Part shown: one piece after another, positions 2,063-63,520 of the stretch
Numbering within the stretch: the first letter of the stretch is position 1
Layout of the letters: each line of letters starts with the position of its first letter
Assembly: GCA_030265395.1 (NCBI GenBank)
Contig: JARFYF010000012.1
Coordinates: 19,910,046-19,974,045 of the forward strand
Direction of reading: 5' to 3'
Length of the DNA: 64,000 bases
DNA from: Rhina ancylostomus
Lineage: Eukaryota
Program-made: the position numbers and the translations under genes
Notes under the pieces: generated by a model
What the model was told of the DNA's origin: nothing
The model's database searches: none
What the model saw: only the letters and a program-made list of their open reading frames with translations

Positions 2063-2737
2063 GTGAGAAATGTTTGTGTTAAACACGCTGCTTAAGGAGG
2101 TGCATGATGTGATAGAATACACTTTTGAAGTAGTGTAGGGGCAGCAATGAATTTAATCGCCTTTCATAATGTCATTCCTTTATGTAATTAAAGTGGGGAA
2201 AGAATACTTGAGCAAAAATTATTTAAATTATTTAAATTAAATTCTAGATCCTAATCAATTTCACTGTTTACCTGCAATTCATATTTGCTGTTTATTTGAT
2301 TTGNNNNNNNNNNNNNNNNNNNNNNNNNNNNNNNNNNNNNNNNNNNNNNNNNNNNNNNNNNNNNNNNNNNNNNNNNNNNNNNNNNNNNNNNNNNNNNNNN
2401 NNNTTGTGACTAAACAATTTGTGAATGAGAACAGCTGCTAGTATCAGCAGCTTGAGATGAGTGGAAAAATAATGGAAGACTAATTTATACTAATTTTGGT
2501 CTTTGAGATCCCATGGTATATATCTGTGTAGCCAGTGCACATGGGAAAACTGAATGCTGTACTGTACATTGTCTAATTAGAAGGGTTTATCCTGAGAACC
2601 TTCAGAATATCATCCATGGTACAAATGAGTTTTTAAAGTTTGCTTTTGTTAAACAAAATAGTCACAGTTTGTGATGGGACAAATATTGTGTTTTCTTGAT
2701 ATGATGCTCATGTCAGTTAATTTTATCTTTCATATAG

Positions 2738-2889
2738 AATCTATTGTGGGTTCCCACGATGCTTCGATTCGTTGTGTTGAATACTGTCCGGAAGTGAATG
2801 TAATGGTCACTGGAAGTTGGGATCAAACAGTCAAGCTGTGGGATCCTAGAACACCGTGCAATGCTGGGACATTTGCACAGCCAGAAAGG
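2738..2889 (+). CDS. BUB3: BUB3 coding exon (SIVGSHDASIRCVEYCPEVNVMVTGSWDQTVKLWDPRTPCNAGTFAQPER)
   Basis: ag|...|gt, 152 nt, WD40 GSWDQTVKLWD motif, phase-compatible with neighbouring exons. Confidence 0.97.
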
Positions 2890-5800
2890 GTATGCAGTGC
2901 TATTGTTATAAAATAAATATTTTAAATAAAACCTGACTGTTGAATACCATGTAAGCAAATATATGGTTATAGCATTTCTTAGACCAAAAATGCAGGTTAT
3001 TCAAATGCAATGTTTTGAAACCTGACTTTGGAAGTGCAAGTCGGATTGTTATTTATAAATCTGTTCTTGTCCAAAAGTGTATATTCCCCTTGTGCAGAAG
3101 GTAAATTCATGACTCACCGTGTTTAAAATATTAAATGAATTGGTATGTTAGACACACAGAGTCCTCCATATTCAGAACAAAGATGCACAATTTTGAAAGT
3201 AGAGCTAGGTTATTCAGGAATGATGCAAGAAAATATTCCTCCTTGCATAGTAAAGAAAATCTAAAGCTCTTGTCACCCAAAAAGCTGTTGCAGCTGGATC
3301 AGTAGACATTTTTAAAACACATTTTTGGCAAATTATTAAGGGTAATACATGTAATGTGAGTAGATACTGTTAATGATCAGCAGCGATGTAACTCACTGGC
3401 CAAATTGGCTTGACGGGCTGAATGATCTACACCTTTTATGTAAAATTTTGTTTGTAATGAACTTGCCTTAGTTTTGTTTTGATGAAAGTTATCTATGTCT
3501 TTGCCTCGAGTAATAAGGATGATTGATTATGTTCCCATTTTCATATGTATAAACTTTTCCAAGTTGATAACTGAAATCTGTTTTAGAATGGGGTAAACTT
3601 TGGTTTCCTAGTGTTGAATAATTTTGCATATGGGGGTAAAATGCTGGGAATTTGAACATATGCAGAAAAAGTTGCAGACGCAGAGGAAAACAGTCAGTAT
3701 CTACAAAGAAGAAAGATAAGGTTTTGGTGTCCTTGACACTGACAACGTTTATTGGACTTAAGCTATCCTCGTATTTTTTTGGCATTTTGGTGGGTTGAAT
3801 AATGCCTTTGTCTAGAGGACGGGAGAATTTAACCTGTGTCCACGTGGAGTCTTATCATACATAGCTCGTATATTTTGAGGCAACAGTGGAATCATGATAA
3901 ACTTCTATATTATTTATTGTTCCTCTACGTTTTTTTTCCCCAAATTGGGGTATAATATGAACAGTAGATTGGTATTTGTATTGTAGAACCTTAAATGTTA
4001 CCAGCACAGATGTATTTTCAATTGTCTTGAAGTAATTTTCACCTTTTGCACATTGTAATATATAGATAATGTTCAAATCTTGTAGTTATAATGGTTATAA
4101 TATAACGTTCAGAAGTTAACCCCCCGCCCTAAGCACCGTATTACTACATCATTATTTACTGCAATATCTACTAACTGGCCATGAAGCTATTCCATTACTC
4201 TTAGCCTAATTTTTTTTTAGTAATATCTTTGTTTAGTGAAAATGGGTTGTGGTGAATGAGGGTATGATTTATAGCATGTTAGGTTCCAAGAGCCAGTGAT
4301 GAATCTGTGACAGAATGGAGTGGAACAGACAGGCATTGTCGATGAAACTGTTTATTGGTTCACTGGGATTCATTATGGCATCAGGTTTTTTATCTGATTG
4401 AGTAATACTATTCCTGATGAATGTGTGCACAGAGTAGACTGGCAGAATCTGCATGACCCATCAGCTCTATCATTTGATTTATGAGTGCGTAGGAGTTGGG
4501 AATATCAAACTTGCAATGCGGAAAATACCTGACAACCAGTATTTCAAAGATGCACATGCAATACATGTAATTTAAACTATTGATACAAATTGCAAGCTTG
4601 AAATCAGCAAAATCACTTTTTTAAAACTGCNNNNNNNNNNNNNNNNNNNNNNNNNNNNNNNNNNNNNNNNNNNNNNNNNNNNNNNNNNNNNNNNNNNNNN
4701 NNNNNNNNNNNNNNNNNNNNNNNNNNNNNNNNNNNNNNNNNNNNNNNNNNNNNNNNNNNNNNNNNTTTCCATCTGGAATTCCAGGATGTGTATGGTATCT
4801 TAATTTCAGTGCATTGTGTGGTTTTAGTCTTGAAGCTACTTGCAAATTTGAGTATTAGCAAATTTCCATAACCAGGTATGCTGACTCTGGATTTGGTAAT
4901 GCAGGCTGAAGAGTAGCATTCTTGTCCAATGAAGTATCAGCCCTAGCTCACCTGCCTTGTAGCAGAGGAGTTTCCAGCAAACTTAAAGCTAAGGTAGTCT
5001 TGGGCAGACTTTCTCAGATTTGCCCACTAGACCTGATGCAAGATTCCAATTCGGATTAGTTTATTGTCATAAACTTCAGGGTGCAGTCAAATTACTTGCT
5101 AGCATGAAGCTCACAGAGTAAACACTATACATGGTATTAATAAATACAACAATAAATACAATGATGAGTGCAAAATAGCAGAATGGTGCAAAGGTTGTTG
5201 TGTAAAAAGAAATGCTAAAGTAACAATAACAAAATAACCAAGAGGGCTAGAATATAATGCCACCTTGAAATCAACAGAAAAAAAATGGCTATCCACGGAA
5301 TTTTTTGATTTGATTTTGGTTAATTTAAGTGTATTTAATTGTTTTTGTGCAACAGTTTTGTGCCCACGTGTTCTTTGTTTGAATTTCAAGTGGGCAGGCT
5401 TCACGGGTTGTAAGTGCCTTTCTGGATTTATGTCCTTGGAGATCCTGAAATTTGCTTGGCCATGGTGATCAGCTGATTGCAGGCCTCACAGTGGAAGATT
5501 GTGCCTGGGATCATAATAGGGGAAAATGTGTCTTGAGGGCTGCCCAGTCAATGGATGATGCAGTGCATAATTTTCACTGTGTAGATATTTTAGATATTTG
5601 GAAAGTCCCAGGAGACATATAAGATTATACTTAACTATTATATTGCCTAGCTTTTAGTTTTCTTAGATTTTTAAAAATAAGTTTTGAAATTGTTTACCAT
5701 GATTCATCAATGTCAGGTTAAATGAGTGACTTATTGGGAATAGTAAAATGGAAGGTGCTGTGTGTATTGAGGCTTGCAGTTGCAGTGCTGCCTTGTAATA

Positions 5801-6979: not shown

Positions 6980-7232
6980 ATAAGACCATAAGACATAGGA
7001 GAAGAATTAGGCCATTCAAACATGGCTGAGCTGATTTATTTTTTTCCTGTCAATCCATTCTCCTGCCTTCGCTCTGTAACTTTTTGACACCCTTACTAAT
7101 CAAGAACCTCTGAATCTCAGCTTTAAATATACCCAATGACTTGACCTCCACAGCCGTCTGCGACAATGAATTCCACAGATTCACCACCCTCTGGCTAAAG
7201 AAGTTCTTCCTTATCTCAATTCCAAAGGGACA
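6980..7232 (-). mobile_element. CR1 (HER1-like) LINE 3' end, runs into gap
   Basis: ataagaccataagacataggagaagaattaggccatt tail; near-identical stretch at 42115-42358 and reverse of 45650-45775. Confidence 0.8.
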
Positions 7233-8109
7233 NNNNNNNNNNNNNNNNNNNNNNNNNNNNNNNNNNNNNNNNNNNNNNNNNNNNNNNNNNNNNNTTTAAA
7301 AATCTAAATGTACTGTTAGTGCTTGACATTCTCCTCCCTCTAGTGTGGGGAAGGTTTGAATGCCTTTAGGAGATAAAGAGGAAAATATCTAAAAGTGACA
7401 TTTAAGGGTGGGGATGGCATGGTGCGGAAGTTATGTTAAAATTCTGGGCTGAGAAAGTGTTGCAGCTGCCTCCGTAGGGGAGCAGATCTACTCCTATTTT
7501 GGTTTATGTACAATCTGACCCAGATATCCTGTTAACTTGCAGGGCCCTGTGTCCTACTTTCCCACAAATGTATAAAATTGTTAGGAGCAGATCATATGGC
7601 TTGTTGAGTATACCGCTCTTCATGATGCCCAGAATACGACTGTCCCATCAATTTTGCAACCTCTAGGCTGAAGTCCAAATTATGGGTCAATAAAGAAAAA
7701 ATGTTCTCCAGTATTCTACAGAAAATTTAATGGTAAATTTTATCAATAAAGCACCAACCCCTTGATGNNNNNNNNNNCTCCCATTTGAAGGCATAAGATG
7801 AAACAAGCTAAGTAATGGAAAATCATCTACAAGAAATGTTATCAGATGTGGCAGAAAAATTGTGGAATGTAGGACCATTAAGGATGTGTGTTCAATTTGC
7901 TTTCATTGAAAACTTTTTCAAGCTGAATACACTAATGTCCAAAATTTTAAGCACTCAATATTTTTCAAGTATTGTTTTAGTTGAAAAATTGACTCTTAAA
8001 GGACAGGTTTGCAATTTTTGTGTACTGAATAACTGAATGTCACTTTAAATATGGCTTATAATGCACAGGTTCTTGTCTGTACATAATTTAATAAGTGGGT
8101 CGAGACACT

Positions 8110-8320
8110 GTAAGTTCTCCCTGTGTCTGCGTGGGTTTCCTCTGGGTGTTCCGGTTTCCTCTCATGTTCCAAAGACATACAGGTTAGGAAATTGTAGGCA
8201 TGCTATGTTGGCGCTGGAAGAGTGGAGACACTTGCGGGCTGCCCCCAGAACATTCTACACAAGAAGATACATTTCATTGTGTGTTTCGATATACATCTGA
8301 CTAATAAAGAAATCTTATTT
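8110..8320 (+). mobile_element. 5'-truncated V-SINE, tail type A
   Basis: gttctccctgtgtctgcgtgggtttcctctgggtgttccggtttcct V-domain; tail shared with 28750-29030. Confidence 0.85.
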
Positions 8321-8721
8321 TGTATCATGCACTTGGTGTCTGGTGTGCAATAATTTCCAAGCTTAAGCTATCAAGTATAATTTACTTAATGTATTGGACC
8401 TTTGTATTGTATGACTTGCTAAAGTTGATTAGCTCATGATGACTGCCACCAATATTAAGTAAAGAGGATGCTAAACTATCTTACCTTTCTTGGTGCTTAA
8501 AACCCAGCATAAAATTTTTTCTATTTTTCTGTTGGGTAAGCCTAGTAATTTCTAGGGTAGGGACATGTTCGGCACAGCTTTGTTGGCCGAAGGGCCTGAA
8601 TTGTGCTGTAGTTTTTCTATGTTTTCAAAATGTGAAAGTATTTTCATCCTTGTTACACGTGTGTAATCTTAAGAGAAAATAGTTGAGTTTTTTTGCTTCT
8701 TTCCCACACCCTCAATTTTAG

Positions 8722-15270: not shown

Positions 15271-16808
15271 AGCCAGCAGAATAATAGGGGAAAATAGATA
15301 CATTGGTAATGCTGAAGTCTTAAATGTAGGGAATTAAAGAGCAGTTTTTAAAATTTTATTATTTGACAATATTGCAATTATACTACCACAGACTAGAGGT
15401 TTTTAAAGAGTTTATGCACAATTTACTGACAATGGGCAAAAGCCAGCATATAAGAATGTGCTAATTATCCAGCACAATGTTTTAAAAAAATTGTACTGTG
15501 GAATGGCTCTCTGCAAACAACTGGCCTTGTACCCAGATATAATTAATCATATTGCAGTGTTTATGCTAATTAGACAATTGTGAACTTTTATGAAAACTCA
15601 CGAAATGAAGCTTGTTCTTGCTCCAAGGACATTAATGGGCAATATTTAAAAGCTTTAGAATTTTTTTTTGTTTTCCTAAGAAACAGACTTCAGTAATGTA
15701 ACCAGCAAATGGCAGTGTAGTTTTAAAATTTTCAGTTATTTAAAAGATGATTTGCTTTCTGATATATTTGCATCAAACCACTTGATGTATTAGCTGAAGA
15801 AATTCTTAAAATAAATTAAATTAGAGATGCTGCATGATTGTGCTGGATTTTGGCACAGTTGAGCATACAATGTTATACAAATTGATCTATAAGGAAACGG
15901 GAGAGAAAAGCACTTAAAATCTTGCATATTATGCACCTAGTTTGCTGTTTGCTCCCTGAGCAGAAACACATTCCCCTATTGTTTCATTACTTAGCTGAAT
16001 AGGTGGACAACAACACTAACCATCTTGAGCATTTACAAAAGGCCCATAACTTTGAAAGTAACCTTTGTTTAATTTTAGGAGTGATGGATCTTGATGCTAA
16101 TGATCTGGAAATCAAAATAGATTAGAGGAGATGGGGCAGTTTGGGGAATTTCTGAACATTTTTAGGCTGAAATATTGTATTTATTCATTCATGGAATGGA
16201 GACCTCATTGGAATGATTGTTTATCCTTGTTGCCCTTGGAGATGTTGTCTGCTCAGTATATTATCTATTTGAAAAGCCTTTTTAGGCTGTATTTCTGTGT
16301 TTTTACCCCTGATCTAAAGGTTATAAATAATAGATCTTTGTCGGAAATTGAAAGCAGCAAGATTAGTGGGAACGTGTATATTTTACTAGAAATCCAGAAA
16401 ATCGGAGAAAAAATAGGCGACTTGGCTCTTTGATTGTGCTCTGCCATTCAGTACAGCCATGGCTAAAAAGCAGCGTGCTTGGTTTACATTGAAAACTGAT
16501 GAACTGTGCAGAGCTGATAGAAATTTTTAGTTTTTGCAAGCTGAAGTCCTTATCTCTTGTGTTCGACCACTAATACCATACTAAAACACCATTTGTTTAG
16601 AGCACCTGATTTCAAATAAGACTGAGAGAGATTTCAAATGAAGGACAACTTGAGCTTACTTAATATATTGACCTTTTAAATGTATTGAAATACTTAGCTA
16701 CTTGGTGACCATCAACTCAGATCAGCAGATATAATATTTAAAGCAGTTTTTTTTTTAAGTATAAGAAATGTAGCAGTAAATTACAGTAAACATTTTTTTT
16801 AAATTTAG

Positions 16809-17025
16809 GTGGCTCTGATGGATTTGTGAATATCTGGGATCCTTTCAATAAGAAAAGATTGTGTCAGTTCCACCGCTACCCCACCAGTATTGCATCGCTT
16901 GCCTTCAGCAACGATGGCTCTGTTATTGCAATAGCATCATCATACATGTATGAAAAAGGTGAAATAGAACACCCTGAAGACAGTATCTATATTCGGCAAG
17001 TGACAGATGCGGAAACAAAGCCCAA
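16809..17025 (+). CDS. BUB3: BUB3 coding exon (GSDGFVNIWDPFNKKRLCQFHRYPTSIASLAFSNDGSVIAIASSYMYEKGEIEHPEDSIYIRQVTDAETKP)
   Basis: ag|gt...cccaa|gtgag, 217 nt; if unspliced the frame ends K-TGA at 17027-17029. Confidence 0.97.
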
Positions 17026-17576
17026 GTGAGTTTCTCCTCAGCTGGCTTTTATCCTTTCTACCATTTGTCCAAACATTTATTAATTTTTCTAATTTCACGA
17101 AAGAAATTGATGTTGAGTAGATAACACAGTTGCTAGCAGAGCTAGTATTGATTCTATCTTGTTCTTCCAAGCTTTCAATATCCGTTGGATGATAGACGTC
17201 ATATTGATAAAAATGTGCCTACTTGTTTTCTCAGACAGCATGTCAAATGTATCTTTTTTGTGCAGTGCTGCTTGGATCAACAAACGTTTGGTCTTTTACA
17301 TTAGAAGTATTCTCTCAAAATTTCATTTTTCTGTGTAACATTGGTCAATTATGGAAAATTCTTATATTGAGATCTGTGCAATTTTCAGCAGTAATAATTT
17401 GTTATAAACAGCAATTAAAACAGTAATATATGAAATGTTTCAACTGCTCAGATATGCTGATTCTTGGTCTAACTGAAAGTTCATCAGACTTCCAATCTGA
17501 ATTTGTGTGGCAAAGGATCAAAAAGATGACAAATGGCTATCTACCGTAATTCTGCAATTTTTAACCAATGTTTGTA

Positions 17577-21080: not shown

Positions 21081-23891
21081 TCTTTCTGTTTCACTCTTCT
21101 AAACTGAGCAATCACTTTCTTGATCTCTATTGTTGGACAGCAGTTAAGTATTAACTACTTTCTTGATCTAAATACCAATGTATAGGCTTGACTTATTTAC
21201 TCTGTAGTCATGGAGCATATTATTAGTTCCCAAGTTCCACCTGCATTAAACATTCAATGTGCCATAATATTGAAAGATTCCTTTTCTGACAAGTAATTTG
21301 CTGCACAAAATCTAGATGTGATGCAGATTATAATGGTGTAGAATTATTTGAAGATTATAGTTTTGACTCTATAGATAAATAGAACATCTTTTTCCCATTT
21401 ACAAAATCCATTGCTTTGTAGTCCCAACAATGGCACAATTATAACCCATTGTTCGTATCTGAGTTGAGAAATTGGGGCTAAATTGCAAATTTTGATTTTA
21501 AAATTCACTGTAAAATGATAGTTCTTCAAGTACAGGAAGCAGCTCTTTGCTCCACTGAGCACGTGCTAGCTTTTTGAACGCTTAATCCAGTTTATCCCAT
21601 TCTGCAGCTCTTTTCCTATGGCCTTTGCAGTTTCCCAATTCCTTTTGAAAGTCATGGTTGAATAGTTTCCACTCTAATGCAGTGAGTTCCAGATCATATT
21701 TATGTCTTGCATGAAAATAATTTTACTCGTGTCACTTTTACACCTTTAAACACCTGTGCACATATGCCTAAAGGTCTCTTTTTTTCCAATTACGTTAGAA
21801 TTAGATGTTGCAAATTGCTGGTTTATTACGCTACGAATCTGATCCATTCAATGCCTTTGAGAAAGTTGCTTCATTAAACAACCAGAAAACAAACAGTTTC
21901 CTATTTAAGGAAGCACAACTCCCATAGACCTACTGCTAGAGGAGACCTCAGTTGACAACAAGTGTAAGAGTCGTCAATAGCCCTTTAAACCATTTGTGAC
22001 CACGGTTCAAAAGGGAAGTCCATTCAATTGATCCAAGAAACAAACAATTCTCCATCAAATCAGTGTTCTTTCATTCCCTCTGCTGTTCTGGTAAGAGAAT
22101 CTCTTTGGTTTATGGCCCTTGGCACCACTCACAATCCCAGACCAAAGTCCTCTCCATCAGTGGAAAATGTTATATACACATGGTCAACCTCCCATCACAT
22201 AACATCACTATAGCAAACAAGCCTTAATTAAGCTGATTAACACATTAACCATTATCACATCAGTGTTTTTTAATAATGNNNNNNNNNNNNNNNNNNNNNN
22301 NNNNNNNNNNNNNNNNNNNNNNNNNNNNNNNNNNNNNNNNNNNNNNNNNNNNNNNNNNNNNNNNNNNNNNNNNNNNNNCTTAATTAAGCTGATTAACACA
22401 TTAACCATTACCACATCAGTGTTTTTTTTAGACAATGTTAGTTGCACATATCACTAAATAGTTAATTGTTAATAAACTAAATAGGATGTATAATATTAGT
22501 ATTCTAACCCAATTACAAAGTTCTTGCTGTCTTCTGTATCACACTACATTATAATCTTTGTATTACTTTTGTCTCAAATGTGCAGAACTGGCACTGTTGC
22601 CCTTGCTCCCCTCACATCCACACTTACCTAGGCTGGGTTTGGCCTGTCTTGTTAGTCTTCTGTCCACTCAACTCCAGCAGTCACTAGGTCCAAGCACAAA
22701 GAAAATACATTATTGAGTTTATTTTTAAATGTCATTTAAAGGTCTTTGAAAACTATCAAAATTGAAGAAAAAAAAGTTCTGTTAATCAACAGGGTTTTGG
22801 ACCCTACATCAGCAGGGACCAGGCATAGGATCTGATTGGCAATACAACACTGTGATGCTGAGTAATTTCAACAAGAGTGGGCCCCACCTTAGAACTTACA
22901 GGAGTTCAAATTTATTAGCAACACCTGGATTCTCAGCACATGTGAGTAAAATTGAGAACTGCCTCACTTTAAATGGCTGAAAACTGATAGTTCTGAACAA
23001 AACTGCTGGCCACAGTCAGGTCCTTTGCCTATCTGCAATGCATCCTTACCAAAATGTATCCATCCATTCAACAAGCTTGTAAGTTTTTCATGAGACTCAG
23101 TAAATTTGATACTCTCTCCTAGCTGGAATTGTTTTCTGGTAAAATACACAAGAATGATTTGGAATTAGTTGTAAAAGATGATTAAATTTGTTCTGTTGGA
23201 ATTGGTTATTGAAATCAAAATATTATCATGACAAGGTTAGTCCGTATTTACAGAGATATTTTGCAAGTGGCCTTCTACATCCCTATGTAGCAGATGGCTT
23301 GCAATTTCCTGGATAGTTCCAGAGAAGTATGGTTAAGGATGGGCTCCTGGGAATTACTGAGATTTTAATTTGATTAGGTAACAAAAATATAGCCATTAAT
23401 AGTAATTGTGGCATCATTTCGTGACTGGAAGCAATTGGCCATTGGCAAACAATTGGTCCCAGTGGGAAGACTGCAACTGCGTAATACTCAGGCAAAAGCA
23501 GAGTTAAGCCACTTATTTATAATTTTTTTTTAATGGTAATTGCATTGCATTAGAGCAAATGTCGACTCAGACAATTTTTATTTAACTGAATTTAATGAAC
23601 AAACCAAAAATGAGTTTAATGGGTTAGGAAAATTTCCAGCAACTAACTGAAATACCCTAAACCAGGATTGAGTGTAATAGCTTAATGATTATTCATTTTT
23701 GGTGCATCAGAGTTTGGATGACAGAATATATTTATTAACAGAAGGCTATACAGAGTGCCAATCTCAGCTCATTTTTGAAACTGGGCTCATAAAATGTAGC
23801 TGTCTGAATATCTTAATTTGCATTTCCAAATAAAATTAAGCTTGTATTTTTAAGTTTAACTGAATATTGAGGTATGCCTCTATTTCTCCAG

Positions 23892-28749: not shown

Positions 28750-29030
28750 AGGCGGCATGGTAGTGTGCGGTTAGCGTAACGCTATTACAGCACCAGTGAC
28801 CCAGGTTCAGTTCCGCCACTGTCTGTAAGGAGTTTGTAAGTTCTCCCAGTGTCTTTGTGGGTTTCCTCCAGGTGCTCCGATTTCCTCCCACATCCCAAAG
28901 ACATACAGGTTAGGAGTTGTGGGCATGCTATGTTGGTGCCGGAAGAGTGGCAACATTCTCAGTAACGCAAGAAGATGCATTTCACTGTGTGTTTTGATCT
29001 TCATGTGACTAATAAATAAATATCTTACCT
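28750..29030 (+). mobile_element. Full-length V-SINE (tRNA head, V domain, tail A)
   Basis: A-box-like ggcatggtagtgtgcgg, B-box-like ggttcagttcc, V-domain gtgggtttcctccaggtgctccgatttcctcccacatcccaaagac, ends gactaataaa. Confidence 0.9.
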
Positions 29031-42114: not shown

Positions 42115-42358
42115 TCCATAAGACAATAAGACATAGGAACAGAATTAGGTCGTTCAGCCCATTGAGTCTGCTCCACTATTCGATCATGGCTGATTTAGCT
42201 CAACCACATTCTCCTGCCTTCTCCCCATAACCCTTGGCGCCCTTACTAGTCAAGAACCCATCAACTGCCACTTTAAATACACTCAATGACTTGGCCTCCA
42301 CAGCCGTCTGTGGCAATGAATTCCACAGATGCAACATCCTCTGGCTAAAGAAATTCCT
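42115..42358 (-). mobile_element. CR1 LINE 3' end, runs into gap
   Basis: cataagacaataagacataggaacagaattagg tail; shares ttggcctccacagccgtctg...ctctggctaaagaa with ~7140-7205. Confidence 0.85.
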
Positions 42359-45174: not shown

Positions 45175-45775
45175 TAAAGCAAGGATGTAATACGGAGGCT
45201 TTACAAGGCGTTGGTCAGACCACATTTGGAGTATTGGGCCCCATATCTAAGAATAGATGTGCTGGTATTGGAGAGGCTCCAGAGGACNNNNNNNNNNNNN
45301 NNNNNNNNNNNNNNNNNNNNNNNNNNNNNNNNNNNNNNNNNNNNNNNNNNNNNNNNNNNNNNNNNNNNNNNNNNNNNNNNNNNNNNNNNNNNNNNNNNNN
45401 NNNNNNNNNNNNNNNNNNNNNNNNNNNNNNNNNNNNNNNNNNNNNNNNNNNNNNNNNNNNNNNNNNNNNNNNNNNNNNNNNNNNNNNNNNNNNNNNNNNN
45501 NNNNNNNNNNNNNNNNNNNNNNNNNNNNNNNNNNNNNNNNNNNNNNNNNNNNNNNNNNNNNNNNNNNNNNNNNNNNNNNNNNNNNNNNNNNNNNNNNNNN
45601 NNNNNNNNNNNNNNNNNNNNNNNNNNNNNNNNNNNNNNNNNNNNNNNNNTCAAAAGTTAAGGGGAGAAGGCAGGAGAATGGGGTTGAGTGGGAAAACTAA
45701 ATCAACCATGATCAAATAGTGGAACAGCCTCACGGCCAAATGGCCTAATTCTGCTCCTATGTCTTATGGTCTTAT
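45175..45775 (+). mobile_element. 5'-truncated CR1 LINE spanning a gap
   Basis: [34 protein letters not shown] (CR1 ORF2 C-terminus); ends tcctatgtcttatggtcttat. Confidence 0.9.
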
Positions 45776-46144
45776 TGCCAGGGATTCCACCAAAAGTCCT
45801 ACGTAAAATAGGAGAAGAAAGGGAGCAGACTGAATCTGCCGATTCAATTTCTATTGATGTAATCCAGTTTAGGAAGTCACTAGTGGGACTCCTCCCTGAC
45901 TCCTCCTCTGATCAGAGATTCCGAAGAGGCCAGATAGAAGGTCAAAGAGACCAGACAGCTTTGTGGCCTACTTCCTTTGGAAGATGCATTGTGATTTCTG
46001 GGCCTGCAAATCTGGGCACTGTTCTTTCCAGTGTCCTGGCATTCCTGTGCACGCTGCTATATCCCATAACAAGACCATTGAGGGGATTGGCCTATGTCAC
46101 ATTATGTGAATGATTCATCCCTCTAAGACCAGATTTACCTGGAC

Positions 46145-53471: not shown

Positions 53472-54551
53472 GGCTTCCTGTCAGTCACATCAATTATTTC
53501 CCTTTATTCCAAGGTGGTGCAGACTGCACTGAACTCAACTAACCTCAAAACTGCACAAAGTCATCCTCCAAACCAATTTACATTCTCCTCTGTTGAAAGT
53601 CAGTAGCCTTCACCAACCACTTGGATTTAACTAACAGAGCACTATGTAGGAACATACAGACAATACACACTAAGAGAATGCACGTGATCAGTTCACATTT
53701 CTTTGTACTATAGAATAATTTTGTTTTATATTTTTTGCATTGTGACCAAGCAATTTCACATTGAAAATCACTGACATGGTAAGAGAAAGTGTGGAATTGT
53801 GGGTGATGGGTATGGAATCAGAACTAGCATCACGCTGAACTTAGCTCTTTACAAACAGCCCAAGCAGAAAGTTTTGGATTGCCTCTTTCCTTCCCCTTCA
53901 TGCACTCGCACTCCAGCTCTTTTTTGTGAAGCTGATCACAACAGCTGTTCTCTTGAGGGCAAAGTTGCACAGCATGCAACATACCCTAGTTAGCATAATA
54001 CCCACAGTACCAACTGCTCCAAGATGGTCCACACAATCCAAGTGTTGTGTCACTGGTCTGCTCTATCATACTTTGTCTGGACTTTCATTTTATGCACACT
54101 GAGTTCATGTGGTTGGTTCTGTGCTGTAGTTGTCAGTTGACAGGTGGGTGCCCAATAACTTTGTGCTGCTATGCTGGGATAAACACATTTGGCAGTGAAT
54201 TTATTAATCTGTTAGCTTGATTGAAGTACCTCATCCTTTCATGAAAAAAACATATGCTTCACAAAATAAGCCAATGATTAAATAATTGTAATTTAAACCT
54301 TTTTTAAAAACCACATGGCATCTCTAATTGTGATCACTTGTGTATTCTCCAAGTGTGTATTGTCTATATGTTCCTACATAGTGCTCTGCTAGTTAAATCC
54401 AGGTGGTTGTTGAAAGCTACCGACTTTCAATAGAGGAGAATGTAAATGGGTTTGGAGGATGACTTTGTGCAGTTTTGAGGTTAGTTGAGTTCGGTGCAGT
54501 CTGCACCACCTTAGAGTAAGGGGAAACAATTGATGTGACTGACAGGAAGCC
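53472..54551. repeat. ~220-bp inverted repeat pair (53472-53690 / 54331-54551) with 640-bp spacer
   Basis: Manual alignment: about 16 substitutions and one 2-nt indel (~92% identity). Confidence 0.95.
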
Positions 54552-57177: not shown

Positions 57178-57428
57178 GGTGGCACGGTAGCGTAGTGGTT
57201 ACCATGACGCTATTACAGCACCAGCGACCCAGGTTCGATTCCCGCTGCTGCCTGTAAGGAGTTTGTACGTTCTCCCGTGTCTGCATGGGTTTCCTCCGGG
57301 TGCTTCAGTTTCCTCCCACATTCCAAAGACATATGGGTAGGTTAATTTGGGGTTTAAAATGGGTGGCGTAGACTCGATGGGCCGGAAAGGCCTGTTACCA
57401 CGCTGTAAAATGTAAAAGTAAATAAAAA
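57178..57428 (+). mobile_element. Full-length V-SINE (tRNA head, V domain, CR1-type tail B)
   Basis: ggcacggtagcgtagtgg (A box), ggttcgattcc (B box), V domain, tail gatgggccggaaaggcctgttaccacgctgta. Confidence 0.9.
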
Positions 57429-57879: not shown

Positions 57880-57971
57880 GTGGTACAGAAACAGGCCCTT
57901 TGGCCCACCATGTCCATGCTGCCCATTGTACTTATACTGATCCTATTTGCCCACAAAGCCTTCAATGCCTT
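57880..57971 (-). mobile_element. CR1 LINE 3' tail running into gap
   Basis: gtacagaaacaggccctttggcccacc, same tail type as 61345-61400. Confidence 0.7.
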
Positions 57972-58429
57972 NNNNNNNNNNNNNNNNNNNNNNNNNNNNN
58001 NNNNNNNNNNNNNNNNNNNNNNNNNNNNNNNNNNNNNNNNNNNNNNNNNNNNNNNNNNNNNNNNNNNNNNNNNNNNNNNNNNNNNNNNNNNNNNNNNNNN
58101 NNNNNNNNNNNNNNNNNNNNNNNNNNNNNNNNNNNNNNNNNNNNNNNNNNNNNNNNNNNNNNNNNNNNNNNNNNNNNNNNNNNNNNNNNNNNNNNNNNNN
58201 NNNNNNNNNNNNNNNNNNNNNNNNNNNNNNNNNNNNNNNNNNNNNNNNNNNNNNNNNNNNNNNNNNNNNNNNNNNNNNNNNNNNNNNNNNNNNNNNNNNN
58301 NNNNNNNNNNNNNNNNNNNNNNNNNNNNNNNNNNNNNNNNNNNNNNNNNNNNNNNNNNNNNNNNNNNNNNNNNNNNNNNNNNNNNNNNNNNNNNNNNNNN
58401 NNNNNNNNNNNNNNNNNNNTTCATTAAGA

Positions 58430-61340
58430 ATCAATGAACATTAATGCCAAGGAATCATAAATACTTTTAAATATATCCAATTTTTGTGTGGGCTTTAATC
58501 CATATTTTAACAAATTGCATGAGCAGCACTCTAATTTGCCAACCCAGTCATTGCTTATGAAACCTATCCTTGGGCTGATGGGGGTACCCAAATATTTTTT
58601 AAAAGATCCTGGTGCAATAAAATATAACTCATTACTATTAATGGACCATTTCTTGATGGAATTAAAAACATAAAACCCAAACTTGTAGTTCTCACAAGAA
58701 AAATCTCAAACTTGTTTGAAAATGTTATTGTATGACATTAGTCATATAACCTCACTGGCAAAAGCCAAGTTGTTACAATATATTTTACTTAGAAGCTGCA
58801 GTCCTCCCTATCCAAGGACACAATAAAACATCTATTTCCAAGTTAAATAAAATAAGGGAGAGAAGATCACCCTGTTTCACTTCCCTCAAAATAGGGGTGT
58901 GTCAGATTCTGGCCTTGCCATTTCCAATAAAAGTGGATGGATTAAAATACAGATTCACAATTGGAGTGATGAAGTGGGCAAGACATCCATGTGGCCAAGA
59001 GGTTTTGACCCACAGGGTCAAAGACCTTAGCAAGGTCTATAAAACCATGGCCAGGTCCCTTGTATTCTGATTGGGTCTGGTTTTTCAGATTATTCTGAAT
59101 CAAAGGTCCCAAAGAGCACAGAACAAGTTTCCACCACACCTGAATTTTTGATAACAACCAGAGATGGACACAAAAAATAATTTTGCCAGACATTTAGGCT
59201 GATCACTTCAACCAATCCCTTAGCCAAGATCTTAGTGAACAGCCTGAATCGTGATAGACGCCAATTATCGACGTTTCCAGGTTTATTGGACTGTCTTACT
59301 TTAGAACATGGACACTGCAGCCATTCTTACGATCGGCTGGTATCTTGCTGCACTTCAGCCAAGAACAATAGAGCTATTTTAAAATATTGAAGTCCATCTT
59401 AGCAATCCCACTTGAAGTGATGCTGTCTGGGCTGGCAGTGATATTCTTTAAACCATCAAAGCATAAAATCTCAACTGTGCTAACACTATGTAAAAAACCT
59501 GTTATTGTTACTCTGAGCTAAGCAAGGGCTAAACTTCGCAATGTTGGCTTTATTATTAAAAACTGCAAACCAAGATTTAAAATGGGTCTCTATAATGTCA
59601 ATGGCTAAAGGGCAGATCAGATAGGTTGGTTTGCCCATACTGTCTCACAAGGATCCTTCTATTCTCTTTATACATCTTTTGCACCAACATAAATTCTCCC
59701 TTCTGGTTATCAAATCTCTTCCTTACACTAGAATTAAAAACTTCATTTCTCTGTCATCTCTGGAGTGTCAGTCACTTCTTGGGTCTCACCTTACACTTGT
59801 GTTTCTCAGATATATATCTACAACCCTGGTCAGTAAGCTTTCATGTTTCTTCTCACTGCCAGTATACTTATTAATAGCTAAAATTTTCCCCTTATTGAAT
59901 GGCTGGGTTACAGAAATCCCATCTTTGCTATTTGAACCCACAACAAAACTATTATTAAAGAAACCATTCTTTAGCCATTACACCATTGCCCATGGCTGTC
60001 CTATCAGCGCTAACAATATTCTCTACAACCTCAACTTCATCCTCACTTACAAGGGTGACAGCATAACTAACATCTGTCTTATCCATACCCACCTCAGCTT
60101 CATCCAAAGAAGCACGTCTTCCCTCAAGCACCACATGCCTTTTTATATAGTTGGCCATGCACAATCTTATCGTCCAGGATTGCTAGAGACCTGCTACTGC
60201 CCAACTCACTGGTAATAAAAACACTCAATGTTCTTCTCATCCTCAAATGCAAGGTCTGACTGAAAGAACCCATCCACTTCTTTTTTGATCCAGATGGACA
60301 GAGATTTCCCTATTAACAACACACTCACTCCTACAAGAATTTGCATTAGTACTAGATGGTCTTTTAGAATTTCTCAATACAGGGTGCCTGTGATGTTCTT
60401 GCTGTCTAAGGCTGATCTTAGAAAGAAACAGGATACTGCATTCAGAACAATGGAGAGACCCAGTTCCCTCCAGACCCTAGTCAGTCCCATCCCCACTACT
60501 ATTTATTTATTGCTGATCTCTCCTTTGCATTTCACATAGTGGCAGATGATTGACTGCCATCTACCAATTTTGTCACACCTACCACACTGAGCTTTCATAT
60601 GAACACCAGCACGGAATGTATCAAAATGTTTCTTAAAAGGATCAGAAGCAATAAAACCCTCATTACAAATACTAAACTTAAGATTTTTGACTTGATAACT
60701 GACACTGACTTCCTTTAAAACCTCACTGGTAGAATTACCATTAACTATAGGACCACTATCTTTTAAAAGAGTATCCCCACCTCTTTAAAATGGGCAGTCT
60801 AAAACCAGAATCTAAAATTGGAGACTTTAAGATGACAGAATTACAACCTAATTTTTAAAAATTCCTCAATAAAAACTTTACATCCATCCATAGAAGCAGG
60901 TATTTGGAGCTGACTATTCAAAATGCTAAAAATCAGAACTAAAAAGGACCCAAACTCTCCCAGGGCTTTCCTCTTCATGTGTATCTTCACTCAACAACCT
61001 GGGTTGAGGCACCTGAATAACCCTGGGAACTAAAAATCTTCCAATTAAAATAAAGTCATCCTCTGTGGTTTGTGTTTCCAAAATGATAACCAGCCTAGCA
61101 GGGCTGAAGATGGCCTGTCCTCAGTATCTGCATTTATTACAAGTGGTCCCTGTGGAGGCCTTTTCATTATTTTAGCAGCATTATTTTTCCAGTGGCAACC
61201 CCACCTGGGCATGGAAAGATCATTCACAAGCATTTCTTACTGTCAGACTGTTTAATGTCAGAGCCCAGCAATTTCTAGGAGGTCCACTTAGCCAGTAAAC
61301 TCCATCACCCAGGAGGAAACACATGAAGGTGGGACTGCAC
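58430..61340 (-). mobile_element. Decayed R2 non-LTR retrotransposon, clade A-like (3 ZnF, Myb, RT; 3' RLE end not seen)
   Basis: Colinear minus-strand peptides: degenerate ZnF FSICNEG..KKHFDTFR; CCHC QCGRCDKIGRWQSIICHYVKCKG; C2H2-type CSECSILFLSKISLRQQEHHRHPVLRN; Myb WIKKEVD..AFEDEKNI; TASPDSITSSGIAKMD; WLKCSKIP; DNWR-ITI/RLFTKILAK; DLAMV-IDLAKVFDPVG; VKQGDLLSLILFNL; LAFASE; WSINSNELYFIAPGSFKKYLG; LKPTQKLDIFK. Many stops and frameshifts. Confidence 0.9.
61282..61335 (-). ncRNA. Degenerate HDV-like ribozyme at R2 5' end (P1 5' strand missing)
   Basis: Minus strand GUCCC-ACC-UUCAUGU-GUU-UCCUCCU-GG-GUGA(UGGAGU)UUAC-U-GGCUAA-GUGGAC follows P2/P3/L3/P3'/P1'/GG/P4/J4-2/P2' order. Confidence 0.6.
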
Positions 61341-61342
61341 AA

Positions 61343-61604
61343 TTACACAGAACAGTACAGTACAGAATAGGCCCTTCAGCCCACAATGTTGTGCTGACAT
61401 AGCTATACCTTCAGAATGCCCATATCCCTCTATTTTCCTCTCATTCGTGTGTCCATCCAAGCCCCTCATAAAAGCCCCCAATGAATTTGCCTCCACCACC
61501 CCATCAGGCAACACATTCCAGGCATCCACCACTCCCTCAGTAAAAAAAAACATACCCCTCACATCTGTTCCGAACCTATCCCCTCTCACCTTAAATGCAA
61601 TCCC
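61343..61604 (-). mobile_element. 5'-truncated CR1 LINE 3' end
   Basis: agaacagtacagtacagaataggcccttcagccc tail; ORF 61305-61625 FKVRGDRFGTDVRGMFFFTEGVVDAWNVLPDGVVEA is the CR1 C-terminus. Confidence 0.9.
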
Positions 61605-61749
61605 TTGTTGATGGCATGCAATCATCTGTCACTATGTGAAATGCAAAGGAGGTATCAGCAACAAATAAATAGCAGTGGGGATGGGACTGACTAGGGACTG
61701 GGTCTCTCCATTGTTCTGAATGCAGTGTCCAGTTTCTTTCTGAGATCAG
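61605..61749 (+). repeat. Inverted copy of the R2 zinc-finger segment 60412-60567
   Basis: Reverse complement aligns with about 10 substitutions and an 11-nt deletion. Confidence 0.95.
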
Positions 61750-61959
61750 TAGTGTACCTCCTAAGATACATAGTGTGGCTCACTGTGACTAACATTGGTA
61801 ATCACTGCCTGTTTGGGGGAAAGAGGCCACTGTCCATGCAATCTAACCATGTCGCTGCAAGCAAGTTTTTCATTATACCTGTACCTCACCACAAATGACA
61901 ATTAACTCCATTTGACACTCACCAGTTTTCACTGATTACCTCCTCCCTATTGTTGTGAG

Positions 61960-62350
61960 TGTATCTGCCTCCAAGACCACCTCAGGCAGTGGAGCACACC
62001 GATTCCAACCATTCTATTGAAAAAAACTCCACCTCAGATCCCCTCTAAACCTCCTACCTCTCAACTTATACCCATGACATTGTTTCAGATACTTCCACTG
62101 TGGGAAAACAATTACCACTACCTACCCTGACTAGACCTCTCATAATTCTGTATGCCTCTATCAGGTCACACCTCAGCATCCTTAGCTCCAGGGAAAAACA
62201 AACCCAGCCTACCTAATCTCTCCTTTTAACTGAAATAGCATCCTGGTGAATGTCCTCGGCACCCTCTCCAGTGCAATCACATCCTTCTCATTAGTGCGGC
62301 AACCAGAATGGCACACAATACTCCATCTGTAGCCTAACCAGTGTTTCATA
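61960..62350 (-). mobile_element. CR1 LINE fragment
   Basis: ORF 62209-62427 contains KDVIALERVPRTFTRML. Confidence 0.85.
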
Positions 62351-63339: not shown

Positions 63340-63520
63340 CCTATACACTGGGGCAATTTACATGACTGATTAACCTATCACCACATCCTTGGAATGTGGG
63401 AGGAAACCAGAACATTCAGAAGAACCTATGCAGTCAGAGAGAGAACGTGCAAACTCCACAGTCGGCATTGGAGGTTAGGATCGAAGCTGGGCCACTGAGG
63501 CAGCAGCTCTCTGTGTCACC
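63340..63520 (-). mobile_element. V-SINE
   Basis: ttggaatgtgggaggaaaccag...gagaacgtgcaaactccac is the reverse V-domain. Confidence 0.8.

What the first reader, a model, noticed from the sequence alone, without database searches (positions are those of the whole stretch)
58430..61340. Fossil clade-A R2 retrotransposon outside rDNA, with 5' half nearly complete
Seen: more than ten colinear minus-strand peptide blocks with R2-like spacing (three N-terminal zinc fingers in CCHH/CCHC/CCHH-type order, Myb, RT motifs, thumb LKPxQK). Established: R2 elements normally insert site-specifically into 28S rDNA, and three fingers plus Myb is the clade-A architecture. No 28S sequence is recognisable at the 5' flank; the 3' side ends at an N-gap. 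Inference: either an old off-target insertion or a lineage that lost site specificity, possibly an undescribed elasmobranch R2 family. It is broken by stops, so the ORF track shows only a short piece (58942-59193).
Basis: partly seen in the sequence, partly recalled or inferred. Interest (0 to 1): 0.8.

Follow-up and report, generated by a model that had tools for sequence, protein, structure and literature searches.

The report
Dead R2 retrotransposon outside ribosomal DNA
This is the long-dead remains of a jumping gene that normally inserts only into ribosomal RNA genes, found stranded in ordinary fish DNA; such strays are known in flies, and its shark relatives are already described.

Summary
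Confirmed as a fossil lineage-A R2. A frameshift-aware alignment maps R2 residues 135-920 of 1289 collinearly onto 60712-58420 (minus strand), score 387 against at most 41 elsewhere, with 14 frameshifts, 14 stops and the RT motif FADD changed to FASE. Three trees place it with elasmobranch R2s.

New here: a probable HDV-like ribozyme remnant (61336-61282), an inverted copy of the ZnF2-ZnF1 segment (61607-61749, plus strand), and LINE tails over both ends, so neither native junction survives. The window holds no rDNA, has host exons 41 kb away, and lacks the endonuclease half.

Elasmobranch lineage-A R2s are already published, mostly with 28S flanks (PMC13188248), and off-rDNA R2 copies are known in Drosophila (PMC2718515). 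The best reading is an old off-target copy of a 28S-resident subfamily, dead on arrival.

The open lead is six incomplete shark R2 gene models on 0.25-11.5 Mb scaffolds, which hint that shark R2s leak out of rDNA often. Their flanks could not be read.

The parts
61282..61336 (-). Probable remnant of the 3' part of the R2 5' HDV-like ribozyme (P2, P3, L3, P1 3' strand, P4, J4/2, P2'); the P1 5' strand is missing
   Evidence: 22-nt core of the Chiloscyllium R2 5' UTR matches once in 64 kb, 0 of 100 shuffles. A structural descriptor hits only here; 4 hits in 30 shuffles (descriptor tuned on this site). It no longer folds better than shuffles, z 0.58. Part of it also resembles the window's SINE.
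60713..61281 (-). Rest of 5' UTR and N-terminal leader, assigned by position only
   Evidence: Lies between ribozyme remnant and ZnF3. Alignment to three leaders not significant (129-289 of 300 nulls reach it); no other match in the window.
60599..60712 (-). ZnF3 (N-terminal finger) with preceding strand; 2 of 4 ligands left
   Evidence: 0 of 200 nulls
60524..60598 (-). ZnF2, CCHC, all four ligands left
   Evidence: 0 of 200
60354..60467 (-). ZnF1, CCHH type, 3 of 4 ligands left
   Evidence: 0 of 200
60156..60314 (-). Myb domain remnant, three frameshifts
   Evidence: 2 of 200; weak
59739..60119 (-). Variable linker, assigned by collinearity
   Evidence: not significant alone (172 of 200)
59314..59726 (-). 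Pre-RT region (motifs -1/0)
   Evidence: 0 of 200
58727..59313 (-). RT motifs 1-5; KQGD kept, catalytic FADD reads FASE
   Evidence: 0 of 200 for both halves
58420..58726 (-). RT motifs 6-7 and start of thumb (KYLG, LKPTQK), cut by the gap
   Evidence: 0 of 200
61607..61749 (+). Inverted second copy of 60412-60564 (end of ZnF2 to middle of ZnF1); 132 matches, 11 mismatches, one 10-nt indel
61345..61606 (-). 5'-truncated LINE 3' end (CR1/L2 type; name recalled) that overwrites the R2 5' junction and abuts the inverted copy
   Evidence: homologous to other LINE tails in the window at 62084-61960, 8550-8622, 42353-42258, 7202-7132
57972..58419 (.). Assembly gap of 448 N hiding the 3' end
57880..57971 (-). 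LINE 3' tail on the far side of the gap; no R2 sequence follows
   Evidence: (weak match to 61389-61360, E 0.005)

Best explanation
An old, dead copy of a lineage-A R2 from an extinct or unsampled elasmobranch subfamily that normally lived in 28S rDNA. Established for R2: the element is co-transcribed with 28S, cut free by its 5' HDV-like ribozyme, and reverse-transcribed into a nicked site. Inferred here: a near-full-length cDNA landed off target in the region downstream of a WD40 gene, where an element without its own promoter cannot be transcribed. Shown: it then decayed (14 frameshifts, 14 stops, RT and zinc ligands lost, CpG o/e 0.10). Inferred: a later LINE insertion replaced the 5' junction and is linked to a local inverted duplication of the finger segment, and the endonuclease half was deleted or lies in an under-sized gap. 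It does nothing today. Such leakage may be fairly common in sharks.
For: All 3 of 3 PDB hits in each of two frames are turtle or finch lineage-A R2. Of 9 hits among 1.84 billion representatives, 7 align as R2-type proteins and 2 are short decayed R2-like ORFs. Best single reference is P0020, whose N-terminus equals R2-1_CPu, an element listed with 28S on both sides. Ribozyme remnant in the right place and strand. One copy only in 64 kb. No rDNA in the window; host exons at about 2.7 and 16.8 kb. Precedent: five Drosophila species hold incomplete R2 copies outside 28S (PMC2718515).
Against: Neither junction survives, so target-site similarity cannot be read. The fossil is only 37% identical to its best match, so its parent family and target are unknown. 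HDV-like ribozymes also occur in other non-LTR elements (PMC3774820), so the remnant does not prove rDNA residence. Two other decayed ORFs share residues with the fossil that intact elements lack, and six shark gene models sit on large scaffolds; both also fit a dispersed family.
Confidence: 0.6

Rival explanations
1. Member of an elasmobranch lineage-A subfamily that had relaxed or lost 28S specificity and spread through the genome, like R2NS-1_SMed and R2NS-1_CSi.
For: Six incomplete shark R2A gene models on scaffolds of 255 kb to 11.5 Mb fall in three groups. R2-1_CCar has no upstream 28S entry in Table S2. P0007 scores 100 against the fossil but 43-49 against intact elements; P0005 shares 7 residues absent from 9 intact references. 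The fossil is a long, separate branch.
Against: Scaffold length is not flank sequence. Those six models belong to other groups than the fossil, and three-finger shark relatives are listed with 28S flanks. Only two fossil-like relatives turned up; two word-based searches found none (low sensitivity). No second copy in the window.
Confidence: 0.25
2. The copy arrived inside an orphan rDNA fragment or by DNA-level rearrangement, not by its own off-target insertion.
For: It lacks the 3' end that retrotransposition should deliver first, both junctions are overwritten, and a local inverted duplication shows rearrangement here.
Against: No rRNA family in 56.5-64 kb even at E up to 10; no target motif; flanks are LINE and SINE patchwork of 35-46% GC.
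Confidence: 0.1
3. An ancient single insertion kept across elasmobranchs because part of it was co-opted, for example as a regulatory element.
For: P0007 matches the fossil in a stretch that is out of the R2 frame (7 of 2000 shuffles), which suggests a shared frameshift and so an orthologous or copied locus.
Against: The query frame selects for hits sharing its frame pattern. Lesions are spread evenly and slow shark evolution alone preserves old fossils. No conservation data were available.
Confidence: 0.03
4. Not R2 but another restriction-like-endonuclease clade (Utopia, NeSL, R4).
For: No named Utopia, NeSL or R4 protein was in my trees; Myb is weak; Utopia can carry similar fingers (PMC13188248).
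Against: Nested among named lineage-A R2s with support 0.997, 0.933 and 93. Scores fall from shark-type R2 (322-440) to avian (274-278), PlaMe (230), Glossina (124) and an APE LINE (36). No other clade surfaced in an unindexed search.
Confidence: 0.02

Closest known systems
R2-1_CPu / R2-1_CPl (Chiloscyllium; PMC13188248 Table S2; P0020 = chiPu_0022439)
   Same: Best score over RT-thumb (440), same domain order, long ZnF2-ZnF1 linker, 18 of 22 nt of the ribozyme core.
   Different: Only 37% identical in RT-thumb (147 of 399). R2-1_CPu is intact and in 28S; the fossil is broken, 3'-truncated and outside rDNA. Sister relation weak (0.745) and not kept.
Other elasmobranch lineage-A R2 (R2-1_STig, CCar, CMax, HSa; Scyliorhinus and Chiloscyllium gene models P0013-P0019, P0037)
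   Same: Same clade; ZnF2 pattern CxxC...SIxCHYxKC and the pre-RT NNKANI motif.
   Different: 32-36% identical; they are much younger.
R2Pm (PlaMe, PDB 9nl2) and R2Tg (9dou, 9nl3)
   Same: Three-finger lineage-A architecture; only PDB hits.
   Different: Separate sub-branch; PlaMe 27% identical; active and 28S-specific.
Non-rDNA R2 copies of Drosophila (PMC2718515)
   Same: Incomplete R2 copies outside 28S that cannot feed the rDNA population.
   Different: Those are 1-2% diverged; this one is an order of magnitude older and vertebrate.
R2NS-1_SMed, R2NS-1_CSi (PMC5035012) and sponge R2-like elements (PMC13188248)
   Same: R2 relatives outside 28S.
   Different: They are clade D, clade C or unplaced, with several copies shown in varied flanks; no lineage-A vertebrate case appeared in the passages read.

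Membership tests
R2 (lineage A) | RT groups with known lineage-A R2 | tested here: met
   FastTree 0.997 (shark profile) and 0.933 (profile without shark, coelacanth or Chrysemys sequences); IQ-TREE UFBoot 93 read from the Newick string
R2 (lineage A) | Three N-terminal fingers ZnF3 CCHH, ZnF2 CCHC, ZnF1 CCHH | tested here: met
   All three align, 0 of 200 nulls each; ligands 2/4, 4/4, 3/4
R2 (lineage A) | Myb domain after ZnF1 | tested here: inconclusive
   Right position, conserved Trp, 2 of 200 nulls
R2 (lineage A) | Co-folded ZnF3:2 | not tested
   Ligands lost; no model was built
R2 | 5' HDV-like ribozyme | tested here: inconclusive
   Core and descriptor hits, but P1 5' strand absent, no fold signal, SINE look-alike
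R2 | C-terminal zinc knuckle and restriction-like endonuclease | tested here: inconclusive
   Absent from the window (best 32, background level); element cut by the gap
R2 | Insertion in the 28S target site | tested here: not met
   No rDNA in window. It is an R2-derived copy by descent, not a canonical rDNA insertion; native junctions are lost
R2 | Single intact ORF with active RT | tested here: not met
   14 frameshifts, 14 stops, FASE
R2NS (non-specific R2) | Many copies with clean junctions in unrelated flanks | not testable with these tools
   No eukaryotic genome collection on hand; one copy in 64 kb
Utopia / NeSL / R4 | RT groups with those clades; Utopia lacks Myb | tested here: inconclusive
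   No named members available for the tree; all best hits are R2

The most novel reading that the evidence does not exclude
Elasmobranch lineage-A R2s have relaxed target specificity and have seeded non-rDNA copies repeatedly over a long time. This fossil, with P0005 and P0007, marks an extinct dispersed subfamily, and the incomplete Chiloscyllium and Scyliorhinus copies on large scaffolds are younger waves. It would be a vertebrate three-finger R2 lineage that escapes 28S, giving natural variants for mapping which ZnF/Myb changes loosen targeting.
Probability: 0.25. Interest if true: 0.62.

Novelty: new member of a known kind. Interest (0 to 1): 0.33.

Why it matters
R2 copies in rDNA are purged by array turnover, so old ones rarely survive; an off-target fossil is a record of an extinct R2 subfamily and can be dated by orthology. 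Lineage-A R2 proteins are being developed for gene insertion into rDNA, so the natural off-target rate matters. One dead copy adds little. A count of such copies and their junctions in shark and ray genomes would be a cheap, direct measure of how leaky vertebrate R2 targeting is.

Tried and rejected
Pfam on the three read-through frames: 0 families for 3 of 3. Word-based protein searches with one frame: none among 7523 and 879 candidates; too insensitive to count as absence. The third frame was not searched against PDB (2 of 3 were). Full IQ-TREE run timed out; replaced by FastTree on 50 rows (P0006, P0051, P0054 dropped for coverage, P0005, P0007, P0009 left out beforehand) and IQ-TREE on 20 chosen rows.

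Idea that the R2 5' end lies at 61947 (a purine run complementary to the P1 3' strand): rejected as unsupported. The 7-mer occurs 14 times on that strand, can be read as LINE sequence, the stretch folds no better than shuffles (z -0.16) and holds another dispersed repeat.

Idea that the R2 split one LINE whose halves are 62330-61951 and 57971-57880: inconclusive. Twin-priming as source of the inverted segment: rejected, since the segment is duplicated and the main copy runs on past it. Leader motifs seen by eye at 61200-61060: not significant. A second ribozyme motif search was at chance level for the window (6 matches, 24 of 100 shuffles reach that). PDB did not name the host exons (WD40 hits only). 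Direct dating with the epaulette-shark rate gave implausibly large ages and was not used. Passages of PMC13580325, PMC3787270 and PMC4350176 held nothing bearing on the point.

Full report
Observation. The stretch was read in all frames and three minus-strand frames were read through with X at stops. Two of the three were searched against PDB; each returned 3 hits, all turtle or zebra-finch R2. An unindexed search of 1.84 billion representatives with one frame gave 9 hits at E up to 0.001: six named vertebrate proteins (two Latimeria, Synaphobranchus, Chiloscyllium, Platysternon R2, Denticeps) and three unnamed. A search with the best hit added 46 proteins.

Anatomy. I aligned a profile of 14 shark-type, coelacanth and turtle proteins to the DNA allowing frameshifts. 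Reference residues 135-920 of 1289 map collinearly to 60712-58420 with score 387; 26 of 26 other window segments score 26-41 and the reversed sequence 30. There are 697 matched codons (209 identical to P0020), 14 frameshifts, 6 stops in matched and 8 in inserted codons. Seven of nine domains beat all 200 nulls; Myb is reached by 2 of 200 and the linker is not significant. ZnF3 keeps two ligands, ZnF2 four, ZnF1 three, and the RT motif reads FASE. The C-terminal 369 residues match nowhere in the window on either strand (best 32). They would need more than 1.1 kb, while the gap is 448 N and a LINE tail follows it.

5' end. Table S2 of PMC13188248 gives the 5' ends of shark R2s. A 22-nt core from the Chiloscyllium elements, with CpG decay allowed, matches once in the window at 61330-61309 on the element's strand, 0 of 100 shuffles. 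A descriptor for the 3' part of an HDV-like fold hits only 61336-61282, against 4 hits in 30 shuffles; it was tuned on this site, so the test is partly circular. Against this reading: the stretch has no folding signal, a second motif is at chance level, and about 30 nt also resemble the window's SINE. I take it as probable. Directly upstream lie a LINE 3' end (61606-61345) and an inverted copy of the ZnF2-ZnF1 segment (61607-61749, plus strand; 132 matches, 11 mismatches, one 10-nt indel). The inverted copy abuts the truncated LINE end. Inverted duplications beside L1 insertions are described (bioRxiv 10.1101/2024.12.14.628481, passages), though at the insertion site itself; linking the two events here is inference.

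Context. Rfam finds nothing at gathering score in 64 kb and no rRNA at E up to 10 in 56.5-64 kb; both halves of the target site are absent at 3 mismatches. WD40 exons lie at about 2.7 and 16.8 kb; I recall them as BUB3, which no call named (one search shows the related Rae1). So this is ordinary host DNA, but the insertion site itself is unreadable. The host being an elasmobranch is inferred from the nearest R2s and from recalled SINE and LINE types.

Placement. Scored one by one over RT-thumb (40 of 52 references had enough coverage), the order is P0020 440, other shark-type 322-410, Chrysemys 316, avian 274-278, PlaMe 230, Glossina 124, APE LINE 36, with reversed controls at 30-47. FastTree on 50 rows puts the fossil in the elasmobranch-type clade at 0.997, and at 0.933 after realigning with a profile free of shark, coelacanth and Chrysemys sequences. 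IQ-TREE on 20 rows gives 93 (read from the Newick string because the printed labels shifted on re-rooting). Its place inside the clade is unresolved. No named Utopia, NeSL or R4 protein was available.

Age. Stops in 6 of 697 to 14 of 749 codons suggest roughly 0.07-0.15 substitutions per site since death (my estimate, assuming about 4% of changes create stops). The arms of the inversion differ by 7.7%, so the duplication looks younger. Sharks mutate slowly (7e-10 per generation, PMC10587355, passages), so tens to hundreds of millions of years is likely; this is inference.

What is known. PMC13188248 (text parts 1-2 of 9, passages, Table S2/S7 chondrichthyan rows cut at 400 characters) lists 13 chondrichthyan R2s; 12 have an upstream 28S entry and R2-1_CCar has none. 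P0020 has the N-terminus of R2-1_CPu. PMC5035012 (passages) reports an angel-shark R2 and two non-specific families in flatworms. PMC2718515 (passages) reports incomplete non-28S R2 copies in five Drosophila species. PMC3774820 and PMC11331408 (passages) give the ribozyme and co-transcription model. Six searches showed no paper on dispersed R2 in elasmobranchs; the library lacks most subscription papers and Repbase/Dfam were not searchable, and unread supplements may bear on this.

The lead worth following. One search lists four Chiloscyllium and two Scyliorhinus R2A gene models on scaffolds of 0.25-11.5 Mb. All six are incomplete as annotated, two have an altered motif 5 and two lack it, and they fall into three groups. 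A Chrysemys model lies on a 156 Mb sequence. Scaffold length is not flank sequence, so this only hints at dispersal. Two unnamed decayed ORFs are close to the fossil: P0007 scores 100 against it versus 43-49 against intact elements and shares an off-frame stretch (7 of 2000 shuffles); P0005 shares 7 residues absent from 9 intact references, where each intact reference has 0-4 such residues. They may be orthologues or paralogues.

Verdict. A real, correctly identified fossil lineage-A R2 outside rDNA: a new member of a known kind. Most likely an off-target copy that was dead on arrival (0.6); a dispersed subfamily remains possible (0.25). Interest 0.33.

Noticed in passing
window 2662-2916 (+) and 16790-17029 (+): WD40 exons of a host gene; recalled as BUB3, with the second exon at its C-terminus.
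   Followed up: partly
window 53472-53690 and 54331-54551: A second inverted pair, 221 nt at 92% identity, about 640 nt apart. No obvious terminal repeat or target duplication by eye; similar in age to the inverted copy beside the R2.
   Followed up: partly
window 8109-8313, 28751-29021, 57178-57346, 63369-63497: Copies of one SINE family (HE1-like by recall). Part of its core resembles the putative ribozyme stretch.
   Followed up: partly
window 6980-7206, 42118-42356, 45656-45784, 61951-62340: LINE 3' fragments of CR1/L2 type (name recalled); three N-gaps sit next to such fragments.
   Followed up: partly
window 61771-61786 (-): By eye, 15 of 16 nt match the 5' UTR of R2-1_HSa just before its ribozyme core; the match stops abruptly and was not tested.
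   Followed up: no
P0018 (Chrysemys) and P0021 (Cuculus): R2 ORFs carry host gene names (PDE3B isoform, mitochondrial enolase superfamily member 1); probably mis-annotations, P0018 on a 156 Mb sequence.
   Followed up: no
PMC13188248 Table S2 rows 165-166: R2-1_SCa shows only a short 28S stretch preceded by sequence unlike the other rows' 28S, and R2-1_CCar has no upstream 28S; both may be dispersed copies.
   Followed up: no
window 22223-22271 and 22379-22427: Near-identical 49-nt repeat on both sides of a 100-N gap, likely an assembly overlap artefact.
   Followed up: no
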